In this document: piece by piece, positions 6,001 through 15,000 of the stretch
Position numbering within the stretch: the first letter of the stretch is position 1
Layout of the letters: each line of letters starts with the position of its first letter
UHGV virus genome: UHGV-0180966
DNA from: a virus
Length of the DNA stretch: 36,655 nucleotides
Direction: 5' to 3' (one strand)
Made by a program: the position numbers

Positions 6001-9000
6001 CTGTGTGGTCTGCTTGAAACGGATGGGTATGTCGAGAAGGATGGAACGCTTGTTTTTTCCTCAGCAAGTGAAGAACTGCTCAATGGGGTTGTTCAACTGG
6101 TTAACTCACTCGGCGGGTCATGCCGGACGCGAGTTAAAACTGGCGTGACATACACATACAAGGGCGATAAGCGGCATGGGATGGATTCATACGAGGCAAG
6201 AATCAGACTGACAAGAGAAATCAGGGATGCCATCCGTTCACCACGACTCAATGGCAGATTAACTGCGCATCGATTCGAGGGCTGTGGGGTATTCGTCAGG
6301 AATGTTGAAAAAATAGGCAATGCAGAATGCTTGTGTATTATGGTCGATCACCCTCGCCACCTGTATGTAACCAGGGGATATGTGGCGACGCATAACACCG
6401 AGGTTGTCGGGCATATGGCACTTGAGGCAATGCGTCAGGGTGTGAAGACGTGCATCGCGTCACTTGAGCTGAAGCCAGGCATTCTCCTTAAGCGACTTAC
6501 CCGTCAGGCGACGTGCTGCAAGATGCCGCCAGTGCTGGAAATTGACTCTGCATTTAAATTTTATGACGAAAGACTTTGGGTGTTTGGCCTGACCGGAACG
6601 GCGAAAGCCGACAGGCTGATCGAAATATTCGACTACGCTCGCCGCCGATACGGCATCCAGTTATTCATCATCGACAGCCTGATGAAATGTGGCATAGGCG
6701 ACGATGACTATAACGGGCAGAAGGCGTTTGTTGACTCGATTTGCGATTTCAAAAACAAAACAAACTCCCACGTCATTCTCGTTACTCACTCGCGAAAAGG
6801 TGACAGCGAAGAAAAACCAACCGGGAAAATGGACGTAAAAGGCTCTGGAGCGATAACAGACCTGACAGACAACCTTTTCATCATCTGGCGTAACAAGGCT
6901 CGCGAGAGAGCGTTACAGAGAGTTCAGAGTGGTGAAAAGATGTCAGAGAAGGACGAACAGCTACTGGCATCTCCGGCATCTGTTTTGATGCTTGAAAAAC
7001 AACGTAACGGCGAAGGTTGGGAAGGTGGTGTCCCGTTGTTCCTTGACGAGCAATCGCACCAGTTCCTGCAACTTGAATCAGGATCGCCATATAGCTACAT
7101 CGCCAATATGCCGAAATCGGAATATGACGAGGCGTGGCGACAGGAAAACGTGACGGAGTATTAAATGACCATCTACATCACTGAGCTAATAACAGGCCTG
7201 CTGGTAATCGCAGCCATTTCGTTTGTATGTAACAAAAATCGATTTTAATGCGCCTAAATGATACTGTAGCGAGATAAACACACAGCAGGCATATAATCGG
7301 GTGTCTAGATGCAAAATCTCGTCAGAATGCGATTCAGGAGGTTTAAGGGTGAGGCAAATATACATGCTTCGCAACGAAGCAATCAGAAACAACGCCATAG
7401 ACGCAATACTCTCACTTCCGATCGACGACAAGTCACCTCACGAAGTCCACGTTAAAGAACCAAAGCGTAGCAATCCTCAAAACCGCCTTATGTGGGCGTT
7501 ATTGCAGGACGTATCACGCCAGGTGCCTTGGCATGGACAGAGACTTGCGCCGGAGGACTGGAAAGACCTGTTTACTGCCCTGTGGCTTAAGACCAAAAAG
7601 CTGGAGCAAAGAAGTGTGCCTGGTATCGACGGTGGCGTTGTCATGCTTGGTGTGCGTACCAGCAAAATGCGAAAGGCCAACATGACTGAGCTTATCGAAA
7701 TCATGTTCTGGTTCGGCTCAGAGCGCAACGTGCGGTGGAGTGATGACTCCCGGCGAGAGTATGAATGGTCACAACAAAAAGGGAGGGTTGAATGATTAAG
7801 CATAAATCAGAAACACCAAAAGAAGTTAGAGATTGCTGGCAAACGCCGCTTTGGCTTTTTGATGCGCTGGATATTGAGTTTGGATTCTGGCTGGATTCAG
7901 CTGCGAGCGACAAAAATGCTCTGTGTGCTCACTGGCTAACTGAGGCCGACGACGCGCTCAATTCTGAGTGGGTAAGCCACGGTGCAATCTGGAATAACCC
8001 ACCGTACAGCAATATCAGGCCGTGGGTGGAAAAAGCCGCTGAGCAGTGCATACAACAGCGACAGACGGTAGTTATGCTTGTGCCAGAGGATATGTCAGTC
8101 GGATGGTTCAGCAAGGCTCTGGAGAGTGTCGACGAAGTTCGCATTATCACTGATGGACGGATTAATTTTATCGAACCATCGACAGGGCTGGAGAAGAAGG
8201 GAAACAGCAAAGGCTCCATGCTGCTGATTTGGCGACCGTTCATCAGTCCTCGACGGATGTTTACTACCGTATCCAAAGCGGCATTGATGGCGATCGGGCA
8301 GGGCGTCAGGAGGGCGGCATGAGACGACAGCGACGAAGTATCACCGACATAATCTGCGAAAACTGCAAATACCTTCCAACGAAACGCTCCAGAAATAAAC
8401 GCAAGCCAATCCCAAAAGAATCTGACGTAAAAACCTTCAATTACACAGCTCACCTGTGGGATATCCGGTGGCTTAGAGAACGTGCGAGGAAAACAAGGTG
8501 ATTGACCCAAATCGAAGTTACGAACAAGAAAGCGTCGAGCGGGCTTTAACGTGCGCTAATTGCGGTCAGAAGCTGCATGTGCTGGAAGTTCACGTGTGCT
8601 CCGATTGCTGCGCAGAACTGATGAGCGATCCGAATAGCTCAATGTACGAGGAAGAAGACGATGAATGAGTTAATAAATGGCAATGCTATCAAAATGACCA
8701 CTAATTAGCCGTAAAGCCCCGGGGTTCGATGGCGGGCATGGTGTCAAGCAGCAGACGGCCTACCCGTCGATGAAAATTTCACCAAATGGCTTAATGGTTT
8801 TCACAGAATCCGGCTATTTGATGCTGGTTAAACCCCTGCGCGACGAGACGGCGAGAGAGGAGATGAAATCATGAACAGTTTAATAAGTGCCGCAGAAGTA
8901 AAAACAATGTCTAGCCGTGAGATTGCTGAACTGACAGGCAAACGGCATGACAATGTATTAAGAGATATTGATTTCATTCACTCAAATTTGAGTGAATCAA

Positions 9001-12000: not shown

Positions 12001-15000
12001 CGACAAGGGTTTAATCTGAGGAGGCAAACAAAATGCATCTGAGCGACAAACGTATTGCGGCTCTGGAAGGTCAGTATGACAACCTTGAAGTCAGAGCTAT
12101 GGCCAGCGAAATCGCCATGTATCGCCTCATGGCTAGAGATTTTCTCGATGCCATAGATAAAGAGGAGGAGAAGCCAAAAGACATTGTCGGAGACGTGTTT
12201 GGCGCCTTTGTGGACATGATTACGATGGTGGACAGGTAAGATAAAGAACCTGATTTGAACGATAAGCATGTCAGAAGTTAAATATAGATACACCAACAAG
12301 AGAGAGGAAGTTATGAACCATATTATTTCAATCGGGGAAACTCATATTGGTAACGAAGTTGCGCAAACCGTCAATGCGCGTGAACTGCACCGCTTCCTTG
12401 TCAGTAAGCAGGATTTCTCTACATGGATCAAAAAGCGCATAGATGACTATGGTTTTATCGATGGCGTGGATTTTTGCAAAATTACGACTCCACAAAAAAA
12501 TGGAGCGCCAAAATCAACAGCTTACGGGAATGGTAAAATTGAGTATTTTCTTACCTTGAGCATGGCAAAAGAGCTATCTATGGTTGAGCGAAATGACAAA
12601 GGGCAGCAAGCCAGGAGATATTTCATAGATTGCGAAAGGCAATTAAAAGAAAACAAACCAGCGGTCCCGATCCCTAAAACAATGAGTGAGGCGTTGCGAC
12701 TGGCTGCGGACCTCTGGGAAGAGAAAGAGCGATTGGCGCTGGTTAACAAGGAGATGGCACCGAAGGCTGATGTTTACGATCGTATCGTTGATCGCAACAA
12801 TCTCTATAACGCATCGCAGGTGGCGCAGAAGTTCGGGCAATCAGCGGTATGGCTGAATAAACAGCTTGAGCAATTAGGGGTATACAATCGTTCAGTTAAG
12901 CGTGGGCGCGTCTTCCAGCAATGGTTTATCGACAAAGGCTACGGCATCATGCGCGAGACTAATAATGGACACTCTCAGGCGATGTTCTACGCCGAAGGGG
13001 AGATGTGGATTGTCGGCAAGCTGACTGATGAGGGGTTGATATGAGCAAGCGAAAGAAGAAAGCTCCTGTGAGGACAGAGACTAAATTCACCAGATACATT
13101 CCACAGCAATTCCCAGACGCATTTAAACCATCAGAGATGTTGTCTGATGCTGAATGGTGGGGTGTCGCAAGAATCGTAATTCGCTTGAGAAGAATCGCTT
13201 AAGATTCAAAAATGATGGAGGCATATGGAATGAGCATAAGAGAACTAAACCTCACAAAAGATCAGCATGAGTGGCTGAATGGATGGCTTGAACTGTGGGG
13301 CGCATGGGTTTATTCAGGTCGTCTGGAAAAGCGCATGAGCAGCGTAATAGCGAAGTTCATGGAGAGCGTAGACCCGGGAAGAGTTATGACAAGGCCAATG
13401 TGCAATGATGATGATGGAATGTTGATTTCTCAGGTCGTCGATTCCGTCATGTACATTGACAAGAAAGCCTTTGGCATCCTCCTCAGCTACTACGCTCATG
13501 GTTCATCTAAGCGAGCAATTGCATCCTACTATCACGCGACTGCAAAGCCACGCAAGATGTGTGGGCGTGGTGGTGAGGGATGGAGAAAACCTTCACTGGC
13601 AACCTGTAGAAATGAAATTGACGACATCCTGAAAGCGTCGTTATTTGTTTTGTACCAGCCAATGCAAAATGCTTTCAAAATGCGTAAACGTGTTGAGAAA
13701 GTCAAGCATGTTACTGTTAAAAGCCTTGACATGCAATTAGCCATTTAGCCATAATATTCACATATGCTGCTGCTTTTGCATTCAGCAACCATTACAAACC
13801 AACAGGAGTTGGGCTTGTGATGGTTGCACAACAGGTAAGGGCATTGAACCCGCAGACCTAGCGGAATTGGTGAAAGGTGCCGCGCAGCGCCCTTATCGTT
13901 GTGGTGAAGCTCAATGGCGAGCTAGCAGATAGGCGACAGTGAAAATACTAGTCATGTAGCTGACCGCCGCGCGTACTGCAATCGGCAGCGCACCGATGGA
14001 AGCCGGTTCGATTCCGGCCGCCACAACCCAAACTGAGCCGTAGCCACTGGCTATCCTGAATTCATCAGTGATAGTTATGCTGCGGCTTTCTACATATGAT
14101 CTTCGTGAAAGCGGGTGGAAGGAGGTCGCGCTAACAACCTCCTGCCGTTTTGCCCGTGCATATCGGTCACGAACAAATCTGATTACTAAACACAGTAGCC
14201 TGGATTTGTTCTATCAGTAATCGACCTTATTCCTAATTAAATAGAGCAAATCCCCTTATTGGGGGTAAGACATGAAGATGCCAGAAAAACATGACCTGTT
14301 AGCCGCCATTCTCGCGGCAAAGGAACAAGGCATCGGGGCAATCCTTGCGTTTGCAATGGCGTACCTTCGCGGCAGATATAATGGCGGTGCGTTTACAAAA
14401 ACAGTAATCGACGCAACGATGTGCGCCATTATCGCCTGGTTCATTCGTGACCTTCTCGACTTCGCCGGACTAAGTAGCAATCTCGCTTATATAACGAGCG
14501 TGTTCATCGGCTACATCGGTACTGACTCGATTGGTTCGCTTATCAAACGCTTCGCTGCTAAAAAAGCCGGAGTAGAAGATGGTGGAAATCAATAATCAAC
14601 GTAAGGCGTTCCTCGATATGCTGGCGTGGTCAGAGGGGACTGATAACGGACGTCAGAAAACCAGAAATCATGGTTATGACGTCATTGTTGGCGGAGAGCT
14701 ATTCACTGATTACTCCGATCACCCTCGCAAGCTTGTCACGCTAAACCCCAAACTCAAATCAACAGCCGCCGGGCGTTACCAGCTTCTTTCCCGTTGGTGG
14801 GATGCCTATCGTAAGCAGCTTGGCCTGAAAGACTTCTCTCCGAAAAGCCAGGACGCTGTTGCACTGCAGCAGATTAAGGAGCGTGGCGCTTTACCGATGA
14901 TTGATCGCGGTGATATCCGTCAGGCTATCGACCGTTGCAGCAATATCTGGGCTTCACTGCCGGGCGCTGGTTATGGTCAGTTCGAGCATAAGGCTGACAA

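What the first reader, a model, noticed from the sequence alone, without database searches (positions are those of the whole stretch)
8871..13044. Array of four to five antirepressor cassettes with a conserved ~72-bp leader, in addition to the immI ant
Between ninF and the Q-like gene lie a truncated Rha-ANT, a full Rha-ANT, a Rha fragment, a Bro-N-ANT and an AntA-ANT, each with a different N-terminal domain fused to a related KilA-C/ANT C-domain. Two cassettes are preceded by near-identical leaders (10924-10995 and 12240-12312) that end in the RBS and follow a terminator, suggesting a shared regulated promoter or operator. With the immI ant this makes six antirepressor-type genes, consistent with antirepressor-mediated induction or cross-talk with other prophages.
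Basis: partly seen in the sequence, partly recalled or inferred. Interest (0 to 1): 0.6.

Follow-up and report, generated by a model that had tools for sequence, protein, structure and literature searches.

The report
Shuffled phage regulator genes, shared leader
A P22-like phage carries three intact and several broken copies of a modular regulator gene (swappable front domain, constant KilAC/ANT back domain), and two copies sit behind a strongly conserved ~85-base control region also found in unrelated Salmonella and Klebsiella phages; this is a clear case of module swapping, not a new kind of system.

Summary
The domain calls are correct: Rha-only (8871-9299), Rha+ANT (9296-10024), Rha fragment (10993-11271), Bro-N+ANT (11282-12019) and AntA+ANT (12313-13044). 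The repeated leader is real (82 nt, 88%). It is not one array. There are two clusters, separated by DUF1364-like, RusA and NinH genes. Only three genes are intact, and only leader 1 follows a terminator.

Related metagenomic phages have a single intact 229-aa Rha-ANT gene after ninH. In the window that gene carries a 127-bp deletion. It was also split at a 26-nt linker repeat by 1.46 kb carrying Bro-N-ANT, orf68, leader 2 and the AntA domain. The roi slot shows the same pattern of displaced N-domain stubs.

Leader 1, with the upstream terminator, matches about 300 phage records, mainly Jersey-like phages and relatives (the leader alone about 270). A diverged version lies in tandem arrays in Klebsiella phages. 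In every one checked it precedes a Rha-ANT gene. It is far more conserved (74-88%) than four-fold synonymous sites in the neighbouring ANT domain (24-73%). It has no RNA structure and no LexA box. It contains a 15-bp palindrome, weak -35/-10-like hexamers and a ribosome-binding site, so it is most likely an operator-promoter region.

Antirepressor function is untested. An AriS-like dual-function regulator is at least as likely.

The parts
8661..8708 (+). Remnant of the 5' end of a Rha-type roi-slot gene (MNELINGNAIKMTTN*), overlapping the end of ninF
   Evidence: Matches the start of the 84-aa Rha stub of relative L018 for about 36-38 nt (to about window 8698), then diverges
8748..8853 (+). 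Remnant of an ORF6N N-domain, lying inside the 34-aa ORF 8770-8874
   Evidence: 89.6% identical to the interior of the L018 ORF6N+ANT gene. Pfam finds ORF6N in that gene
8871..9299 (+). Rha domain plus inter-domain linker, cut off where the ANT domain should begin (142 aa). Its stop codon overlaps the next start (ATGA)
   Evidence: Pfam Rha 1-91/91, no ANT. The linker is 93% identical to the L018 linker up to 9266
9215..9266 (+). Linker repeat (...QLALAAP), crossover site of cluster A. The second copy is at 9652-9702
   Evidence: Direct repeat, 81-85%. Homology to L018 switches here
9296..10024 (+). Intact Rha+ANT gene (242 aa) in the roi position of HK97/HK620-type nin regions
   Evidence: Pfam ANT 1.4e-32 and Rha 6.4e-07. 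The HK620, HK97 and HK022 records annotate roi under the match
10897..10915 (+). Intrinsic terminator (GCCCC-GAAA-GGGGC plus T-run) after ninH. It is the left end of the imported cassette
   Evidence: Sequence and scan. Conserved with the leader in Jersey-like phages. Annotated as a terminator in phage Shelanagig
10914..10996 (+). Leader 1: palindrome TTATCGTGACGATAA (10914-10928); third ACGATA half-site overlapping TTGAAC (10939-10944); TTAAAT (10962-10967) or TACAGT (10967-10972); SD GAGAGAGGAA (10984-10993)
   Evidence: Leader identity of 74-88% against 24-73% at four-fold sites
10993..11271 (+). Dead remnant of a 229-aa Rha-ANT gene. A 127-bp deletion between TGAGCA repeats removed about 43 codons and shifted the original ATG (10997) out of frame. 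The C-terminus is cut at the linker
   Evidence: Relatives L018 and L022 have the intact gene. Alignment. Pfam matches only Rha positions 51-91
11232..11258 (+). Linker repeat (EEKERLAL), crossover site of cluster B. The second copy is at 12717-12743
   Evidence: D11, 85%. Homology to L018 ends at 11257 and resumes at 12717
11282..12019 (+). Intact Bro-N+ANT gene (245 aa)
   Evidence: Pfam. Full-length 60-64% protein matches in phages mEp554 and mEp515
12033..12239 (+). orf68, an accessory gene of the ANT module
   Evidence: 38% identical (E 6e-13) to the last 66 residues of the 304-aa Rha+ANT protein of phage SB28, so it is a fusion/fission partner
12240..12312 (+). Leader 2: lacks the terminator and the left half of the palindrome. 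TTGAAC 12255-12260, TTAAAT 12278-12283, then SD and ATG at 12313
   Evidence: Where it differs from leader 1 it matches alleles of phages LSPA1, PK1 and JSSK01, so it is not a local copy of leader 1
12313..13044 (+). Intact AntA+ANT gene (243 aa). Only the AntA domain is new; the leader, linker and ANT domain are of the Jersey-like type
   Evidence: Pfam. The ANT end is 84% identical in DNA to the phage Jersey gene. 12717-13770 is 89.7% identical to L018

Best explanation
The region holds two hot spots for one modular gene family. Each gene has a variable N-terminal domain (Rha, Bro-N, AntA or ORF6N), a short conserved linker and a constant KilAC/ANT domain.

Cluster A (8661-10024) is the roi slot of the nin operon and has no leader of its own. 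By analogy with lambdoid phages it is presumably read from the early rightward promoter (inferred).

Cluster B (about 10870-13044) is an insertion relative to HK620/HK97-type phages. It descends from a self-contained unit: terminator, 15-bp palindrome, promoter-like hexamers, ribosome-binding site and a Rha-ANT gene. The same unit occurs across Jersey-like phages, and in tandem copies in some Klebsiella phages.

Shown: new N-domains entered by recombination at the conserved linker and leader/5' sequences. Each entry cut the resident N-domain off from the ANT domain and left it as a stub. That accounts for the 142-aa and 92-aa ORFs and the two smaller remnants.

Inferred: the leader is a DNA-level control region, that is, an operator plus a weak or factor-dependent sigma-70-type promoter plus an unstructured 5' UTR. 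It would let the downstream gene be expressed independently of the nin operon. It may be autoregulated through the conserved first third of the Rha domain.

Inferred: the three intact proteins act like AriS-type regulators, with a constant KilAC effector domain and a swappable targeting or DNA-binding domain. They need not be antirepressors of this phage's own repressor.
For: - Domains.
- Insertion relative to HK620, HK97 and CUS-3, where homology stops at 10869 and Q follows ninH.
- Relatives L018/L022 have the same ninH, terminator and leader followed by one intact 229-aa Rha-ANT gene. They are 97.6-98.5% identical to the window up to 11257.
- 127-bp deletion between TGAGCA repeats, and crossover at the 26-nt linker repeat.
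- The same stub pattern in the roi slot.
- With the terminator, leader 1 matches 298 phage records. The 81-nt leader alone matches 271, and every listed row is a Guernseyvirinae-type phage. In each phage checked, the next gene is Rha+ANT.
- Homologous leaders and tandem arrays of 2-3 cassettes, some with stubs, occur in Klebsiella phages.
- Mosaic identity profile: leader and first ~100 nt of the gene 81-91%, N-domain core 17-60%, ANT 80-95%.
- Leader identity is 74-88% while four-fold sites in the ANT domain are 24-73%, near saturation between P22-like and Jersey-like copies. The leader is therefore under purifying selection.
- No RNA structure or covariation and no Rfam hit.
- In Shelanagig the gene is annotated with terminators on both sides, so a promoter must lie in the ~105-nt gap.
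- Phage SB28 has TTGATG-16-GATAAT at the homologous position.
- AriS: the N-domain alternates between AntA, Bro-N and pRha on a constant KilAC domain that inhibits SOS (PMC9043618).
Against: - The promoter match is weak. The consensus scan did not call it and it ranks 115th of 366,200 in a crude PWM scan. The -10 candidate lacks the usual A at position 2.
- An alternative -10 (TAnAnT) that is conserved in both phage groups lies 22 nt from TTGAAC, which is too far for a standard promoter.
- The annotators of phage Jersey predicted no promoter at this position.
- No transcription-start data were found.
- Leader 2 lacks half of the palindrome, so the two copies may be regulated differently.
- Nothing here tests what the proteins do. 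Evidence for the KilAC function comes from Listeria only.
- The donor of 11258-12716 was not found.
Confidence: 0.6

Rival explanations
1. One reading: a working arsenal of five or six antirepressors under a shared regulated promoter. They would be used for induction of this prophage or for cross-talk with co-resident prophages, as in the Gifsy prophages.
For: All five ORFs fall in PHROG 'anti-repressor Ant' families and Pfam ANT, AntA, Bro-N or Rha. Trans-acting antirepressors that coordinate prophages are established (PMC3121763). Three genes are intact, and a separate immI Ant exists.
Against: - Two of the five are demonstrable remnants.
- There is no LexA box. Matches with one mismatch occur at chance level and none lies in a leader.
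- The Gifsy antirepressors are described as small proteins expressed from a LexA-controlled unit, which differs from these genes.
- The same cassette is standard in Jersey-like phages, isolates of which are described as lytic.
- The KilAC domain of AriS acts on SOS, not on a repressor.
Confidence: 0.25
2. The leader is not a promoter. It would be a conserved 5' UTR or protein-binding site (for example for a translational regulator, or for a host factor such as IHF), read by transcription that passes the terminator under antitermination.
For: The promoter match is weak. The stretch between the -10 candidates and the SD (A..C.AAC.A.AGAG) is conserved across phage groups. An IHF-like core with two mismatches overlaps GATTTGAAC (my reading of the sequence). 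From my own knowledge, rha and roi phenotypes depend on IHF (Henthorn and Friedman 1995; Clerget and Boccard 1996).
Against: In Jersey-like phages the gene sits between two terminators, and the next gene is convergent. Read-through alone is therefore an unlikely sole source of expression. The most invariant blocks lie upstream of any plausible start site, which fits DNA-level recognition.
Confidence: 0.2
3. The leader is a structured regulatory RNA, such as a riboswitch, thermometer or attenuator.
For: It is long (~85 nt), highly conserved and ends at the SD.
Against: No Rfam family matches it. The folding z-scores are -0.75 and +0.45, no better than shuffled sequence. The alignment fold gives -2.1 kcal/mol with no compensatory pair.
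Confidence: 0.04
4. The repeat is only the by-product of a recent local duplication or a recent transfer and has no function of its own.
For: The two copies are 1316 bp apart in a recombination-prone region.
Against: Where copy 2 differs from copy 1, it matches alleles found in other phages. The leader stays 74-88% identical across lineages whose four-fold sites are near saturation.
Confidence: 0.04

Closest known systems
AriS-like phage regulators (Listeria phi10403S AriS; Azulay et al. 2022, PMC9043618)
   Same: Two-domain architecture with a constant C-terminal ANT/KilAC domain and an N-terminal domain that alternates between AntA/AntB, Bro-N and pRha. The window has one intact gene of each of these three types.
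   Different: AriS comes from Firmicute prophages and is present as a single gene. SOS inhibition is untested for these proteins. No conserved leader or stub accumulation is described for AriS.
roi gene of HK022/HK97/HK620 nin regions
   Same: 9296-10024 occupies the same slot (ninF - roi - DUF1364 - rusA - ninH - Q). It shares the 5' start and the ANT end with those genes.
   Different: The window has extra displaced N-domain stubs upstream, and a second cluster after ninH. The Roi function (a DNA-binding protein with an IHF-related phenotype) is from my own knowledge and was not tested.
Rha-ANT gene of Guernseyvirinae (for example Shelanagig gp21 'antirepressor', FSL SP-101 gp18, SETP3, PBSE191 gp37)
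   Same: Terminator, palindrome, leader, SD, first ~30 codons, linker and ANT domain are homologous. The leader is 76-88% identical and the ANT domain 84-89% identical in amino acids.
   Different: There it is a single gene between tail genes in phages described as lytic. Here it lies in the nin region of a temperate-type P22-like phage, is disrupted, and its second copy drives an AntA domain. That combination was seen only in the window and near-identical contigs.
Tandem Rha-ANT arrays of Klebsiella phages (RCIP0015, pKp383-type Sircambvirus, IMG/VR contigs)
   Same: Two or three cassettes in a row, each with a homologous leader and conserved 5' and 3' ends around a variable core. Small ORFs lie between them and truncated stubs occur.
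   Different: All N-domains there are Rha variants. The leader is a diverged allele. I found no paper that describes these arrays.
Morons, including the P22-like 'ant moron' (Juhala/Hendrix concept; epsilon34 paper PMC2629481)
   Same: A gene block present in some related phages and absent in others, with signs of its own transcription signals.
   Different: The terminator lies upstream rather than downstream. The promoter is unproven and there is no compositional break. The location is the nin region, not the late-operon ant moron.
LexA-controlled antirepressor modules of Gifsy prophages (Lemire et al. 2011, PMC3121763)
   Same: A separate transcription unit, preceded by a terminator-like palindrome and located away from the immunity region.
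   Different: No LexA box is present. The proteins are larger and belong to different families.

Membership tests
Pfam ANT / KilAC (PF03374) | C-terminal domain scoring above the gathering threshold (25.3 bits) | tested here: met
   9296-10024 scores 112.7 bits, 11282-12019 scores 26.1 bits and 12313-13044 scores 40.3 bits. Not met for 8871-9299 or 10993-11271, which have no ANT hit.
Pfam Rha, Bro-N and AntA N-terminal domains | N-terminal domain scoring above the gathering threshold | tested here: met
   Rha 65.5 bits (8871-9299) and 30.3 bits (9296-10024), Bro-N 76.7 bits, AntA 87.3 bits. The 92-aa ORF scores 21.6 bits, below the threshold of 29.9, and matches only the C-terminal half of the model.
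AriS-like dual-function regulators | Architecture of AntA, Bro-N or pRha followed by KilAC | tested here: met
   Three intact genes, one of each N-domain type, compared with the description in PMC9043618.
AriS-like dual-function regulators | The KilAC domain down-regulates the SOS response | not testable with these tools
   Needs SOS reporter assays.
Functional antirepressor | Binds and inactivates a phage repressor | not testable with these tools
   Only annotation names support it. There are no solved relatives by sequence.
Gifsy-type SOS-controlled antirepressor unit | LexA box at the promoter | tested here: not met
   CTGT-N8-ACAG: no perfect match in the window. There are 11 one-mismatch matches against 12.6 expected, and none lies in a leader.
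P22 immI Ant family | P22_AR_N domain, with arc/sar control | tested here: not met
   None of the five ORFs hits P22_AR_N. Only 32824-33555 does, and it lies next to Arc and sar.
Moron | Present or absent among otherwise syntenic relatives | tested here: met
   In HK620, HK97 and Kapi1 the match ends at 10869 and Q follows ninH. L018/L022 carry a shorter version.
Moron | Own promoter | tested here: inconclusive
   TTGAAC-17-TTAAAT is conserved but weak. No start-site data were found.
Moron | Terminator downstream of the gene; distinct base composition | tested here: not met
   No intergenic terminator was predicted between 11000 and 13200 on the + strand. The two + strand terminator-like matches there, at 11351 and 11942, lie inside the Bro-N-ANT coding sequence. 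GC is 0.42-0.54 with no clear break. A downstream terminator does exist in the Jersey-like context.
Structured cis-regulatory RNA | Significant fold, covariation or an Rfam match | tested here: not met

The most novel reading that the evidence does not exclude
The leader, the conserved first ~30 codons (probably the DNA-binding part of the Rha domain) and the KilAC end together form a portable, possibly self-regulated plug-in module. It circulates between unrelated phage lineages: Jersey-like phages and Klebsiella phages on one side, and temperate P22-like phages on the other. Its conserved ends would serve as homology arms for swapping a hypervariable targeting core. That would make it a pan-phage diversifying system aimed at host or rival-phage factors, such as RecA/SOS, foreign repressors or satellites. 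The stubs would be displaced former specificities.
Probability: 0.25. Interest if true: 0.6.

Novelty: new variant of a known kind. Interest (0 to 1): 0.4.

Why it matters
The window gives an unusually legible record of how phage regulator genes are rebuilt. With the intact relative in hand, each breakpoint can be read to the base.

It also flags an ~85-105-nt non-coding element that is under stronger constraint than the synonymous sites next to it. This element travels with Rha-ANT genes through phages of different families and probably different lifestyles, and no function has been assigned to it.

If it is an autoregulated promoter-operator, it explains how these genes stay expressible wherever they land. 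If the proteins act like AriS, phages described as lytic may routinely tamper with the host SOS response or with resident prophages. That bears on phage therapy, where 'antirepressor' genes in Jersey-like phages are already discussed (PMC9409062).

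Tried and rejected
- Rfam scan of the whole window: only sar RNA.
- RNA folding of both leaders and an alignment fold of 12 versions: no structure.
- LexA box search: chance level.
- The palindrome elsewhere in the window or in phage Jersey: only the one site in each, so it is not a genome-wide operator.
- Sigma-70 consensus scan and a crude PWM (frequencies from memory): the leader is only a weak match.
- Leader search in 5,426 complete E. coli genomes: none.
- Genome-contig scan: one hit, a Jersey-like phage segment in a Taishania assembly, probably contamination.
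- Metagenome scan: 9 loci, of which 7 are unrelated chance matches in JAABU*/Ga0055584 contigs and 2 are the informative relatives.
- PADLOC: no defence-system hit.
- PDB by sequence: none.
- Literature: no transcription-start data for Jersey-like phages, no open-access hit for Roi/HK022/IHF, and one uninformative search.
- I considered sigma-E, Fur, CRP and IHF sites by eye. None is convincing. Only the IHF-like core is mentioned, and only as speculation.
- Structure prediction was not run. Only window sequences could have been submitted, and it would not address the leader or the array.

Full report
**What is there**

The window is a P22-like phage genome. About two thirds of the first 25 kb matches Klebsiella phage phiKp_30, CUS-3 and relatives at about 96%. 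It corresponds to a high-coverage metagenome contig, ENA ERZ19693148.

ORF listing and Pfam give this order:
- ninF, 8498-8668
- Rha-only ORF, 8871-9299, 142 aa
- Rha+ANT, 9296-10024, 242 aa
- DUF1364/YbcO-like gene, 10014-10292
- RusA, 10289-10651
- NinH, 10648-10836
- an intrinsic terminator
- leader 1
- Rha fragment, 10993-11271, 92 aa
- Bro-N+ANT, 11282-12019
- orf68, 12033-12239
- leader 2
- AntA+ANT, 12313-13044
- orf53
- Q, 13212-13748

PHROGs files all five ORFs under 'anti-repressor Ant'. However, these are two clusters separated by three ordinary nin genes. Only three genes have an ANT domain.

**The leader repeat**

10924-11005 and 12240-12321 are 88% identical over 82 nt (89.6% over 77 nt). 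The core motif GATTTGAACGATA-N9-GAAGTTAAATA occurs exactly twice in the window, against 0.00 expected.

Leader 1 follows a terminator hairpin (10897-10910) and its T-run. Leader 2 starts at the base after the orf68 stop codon and has no terminator.

The leader is non-coding. In copy 2 an upstream ATG is in frame. In other phages that ATG is missing or is followed by a stop codon. A strong SD precedes the downstream ATG in all versions.

**Where the leader comes from**

The terminator plus leader matches 298 phage records. The leader alone matches 271. Every listed row is a ~42-kb Jerseyvirus- or Kagunavirus-type phage (Guernseyvirinae).

In each phage checked, the element lies between a small hypothetical gene and a 223-229-aa Rha+ANT gene. 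That gene is followed by convergent tail genes. Phage Shelanagig annotates terminators on both sides of the gene.

A diverged but clearly homologous leader precedes Rha+ANT genes in Klebsiella phages of the pKp383/RCIP0015 type. Phage SB28 also has a diverged version.

The leader is absent from 5,426 complete E. coli genomes.

**How the window's arrangement arose**

A metagenome scan with the leader motif returned two P22-like relatives, L018 and L022. They have the same ninH end, terminator and leader 1, followed by one intact 229-aa Rha-ANT gene, then orf53 and Q.

Against L018 the window shows the following:
1. It is 97.6% identical up to 11003.
2. It has a 127-bp deletion flanked by the repeat TGAGCA. 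This removes about 43 codons and puts the original ATG (10997) out of frame. The 92-aa ORF starts at a fortuitous ATG four bases upstream.
3. It is 98.5% identical up to 11257, ending in the linker sequence that encodes EEKERLAL.
4. It then has 1.46 kb with no counterpart in L018: Bro-N-ANT, orf68, leader 2 and the AntA domain.
5. Homology resumes at 12717, in a second copy of the same 26-nt linker sequence. It is now only 89.7% identical, so the right side comes from a different lineage.

Leader 2 is not a copy of leader 1. Where the two differ, leader 2 carries variants seen in phages LSPA1, PK1 and JSSK01.

The roi slot tells the same story:
- L018 has an 84-aa Rha stub followed by an ORF6N+ANT gene.
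- The window keeps the first 12 codons of that stub (8661-8708) and a 106-bp piece of the ORF6N domain (8748-8853).
- It then has a Rha+linker stub, cut exactly at the linker repeat (9215-9266 versus 9652-9702).
- Last comes a Rha+ANT gene.

In both clusters, an incoming 'N-domain plus linker' captured the ANT domain. The resident N-domain was left upstream as a stub.

**Evidence that this is a general property of the family**

The identity profile has the same shape between P22-like and Jersey-like copies and within Guernseyvirinae:
- leader plus the first ~100 nt of the gene: 81-91%
- N-domain core: 17-60%
- ANT domain: 80-95%

Two linker alleles circulate in both settings.

Klebsiella phages carry 2-3 leader-plus-Rha-ANT cassettes in tandem, with small ORFs between them. 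Some carry stubs of 87 aa (L037) and 98 aa (L044).

orf68 is 38% identical to the C-terminal tail of the 304-aa SB28 Rha-ANT protein. It therefore belongs functionally with the ANT gene ahead of it.

**What the leader is**

It is under purifying selection. Pairwise leader identity is 74-88%. Four-fold degenerate sites in the last 100 codons of the adjacent ANT domain are 24-73% identical. Between the P22-like copy and the Jersey-like copies they are 24-50%, close to saturation.

It is not a structured RNA:
- no Rfam hit
- folding z-scores of -0.75 and +0.45
- no compensatory pair in a 12-sequence alignment

It has no LexA box.

Across 26 distinct versions, the invariant blocks are as follows:
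- a 15-bp perfect palindrome, TTATCGT-S-ACGATAA
- a third ACGATA half-site 21 nt downstream, overlapping GATTTGAACG
- a block AA.TA.A
- a block A..C.AAC.A.AGAG, running into the SD

TTGAAC-17-TTAAAT is a weak sigma-70-type match. It ranks 115th of 366,200 in my crude PWM scan and was not called by the consensus scan. An alternative -10 of the form TAnAnT is conserved in both phage groups, but it lies 22 nt from TTGAAC. SB28 has TTGATG-16-GATAAT at the homologous place.

In Jersey-like phages the gene sits between terminators, so a promoter must lie in this gap. I therefore read the leader as an operator-promoter region, with moderate confidence.

The palindrome and the first ~27 codons of the Rha domain (…[18 protein letters not shown]) are conserved together, while the rest of the domain varies. 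That peptide pattern looks like the helix-turn-helix part. This fits autoregulation, but it is inference only. Leader 2, which drives an AntA domain, has lost the left half of the palindrome. That is consistent with the idea, but it is a single case.

**What the proteins do**

Nothing here tests this. The label 'antirepressor' is annotation transfer.

Jersey-like phages carry the gene as a standard component. A paper on one such phage suggests it may induce resident prophages (PMC9409062). In phage Jersey itself the copy has decayed: the -10 region is deleted, the start codon is ACG, and there are frameshifts. The gene is therefore dispensable, at least in that stock.

The closest experimental work is on Listeria AriS. 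Its KilAC domain inhibits the SOS response, its N-domain regulates the phage, and across homologues the N-domain alternates between AntA, Bro-N and pRha (PMC9043618). The abstract of a phi11 Gp07 paper reports that the KilA-type domain is growth-inhibitory in E. coli.

I therefore rate an AriS-like role (constant effector domain plus swappable targeting domain) at least as likely as classical antirepression. Gifsy-type regulation is not supported.

**Verdict**

The finding is a new variant of known things: modular Rha/Bro/AntA-KilAC regulators, mosaic nin regions and morons.

Two points are worth keeping. The first is the base-level record of serial N-domain displacement. The second is the strongly constrained leader shared across phage families, whose function is unassigned.

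Interest is moderate, at 0.4.

Noticed in passing
window 15866-16408 (+): A further Rha-type gene (Rha + ORF11CD3, 180 aa) lies just after the lysis genes, in the position I recall for the rha gene of P22 (from memory, not checked). It raises the count of Rha-type genes in this phage.
   Followed up: partly
window 35803-36501 (-), ATG near 36258: An ORF downstream of the tailspike contains a truncated Rha domain (model positions 1-73 of 91) fused to unrelated sequence. Its 5' end, including the SD, is 88% identical to the Jersey-type Rha-ANT gene, but it lacks the promoter part of the leader.
   Followed up: partly
window 31719-32375 (-): A 218-aa ORF next to immI has a weak, sub-threshold KilA-N match (E 0.006).
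   Followed up: no
window 32532-33555: The immI region is made up of Arc (32532-32756), sar RNA (32757-32823, minus strand) and a 243-aa Ant with only the P22_AR_N domain. No P22_AR_C hit was found.
   Followed up: partly
window 4258-7164 (+): A 968-aa ORF has precomputed hits to Toprim_2 and, weakly, LAGLIDADG_3. This may be an intein or homing-endonuclease insertion in the primase/helicase.
   Followed up: no
L004 (NZ_JACVEL010000023.1, Taishania pollutisoli assembly): A 13-kb scaffold of this Bacteroidota genome assembly carries Jersey/Kaguna-like phage genes, including the leader and a Rha-ANT gene. This is probably contamination of the assembly.
   Followed up: partly
Leader alignments, e.g. 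L002 vs L004 (terminator upstream of the leader): The terminator loop is GAAA in some Jersey-like phages and TTCG/TTTC (its inverse) in others, with the stem unchanged. The central base of the palindrome flips between G and C, not in step with the loop.
   Followed up: no
L032 (phage Jersey) 14963-15164 (-): The type phage Jersey has a decayed copy. The -10 part of the leader is deleted, the start codon is ACG, and the 5' coding region is frameshifted. The annotated gene starts internally.
   Followed up: partly
L035 (Klebsiella phage RCIP0015) 59-2950; IMG/VR loci L037, L038, L042, L043: Tandem arrays of two or three leader-plus-Rha-ANT cassettes, with small unknown ORFs (60 and 82 aa) between them. 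I found no paper describing them.
   Followed up: partly
window 12033-12239 and L033 2201-2398: orf68 is a free-standing version of the C-terminal tail of the SB28/Vi II-E1 Rha-ANT protein. It has no Pfam or PHROG family.
   Followed up: yes
L015-L017, L019-L021, L023: Seven metagenome loci matched the relaxed leader pattern by chance. Six of them share an unrelated conserved sequence (GTCACTGATGTTCT...TTGAACGATAC...). They are not related to the leader.
   Followed up: no
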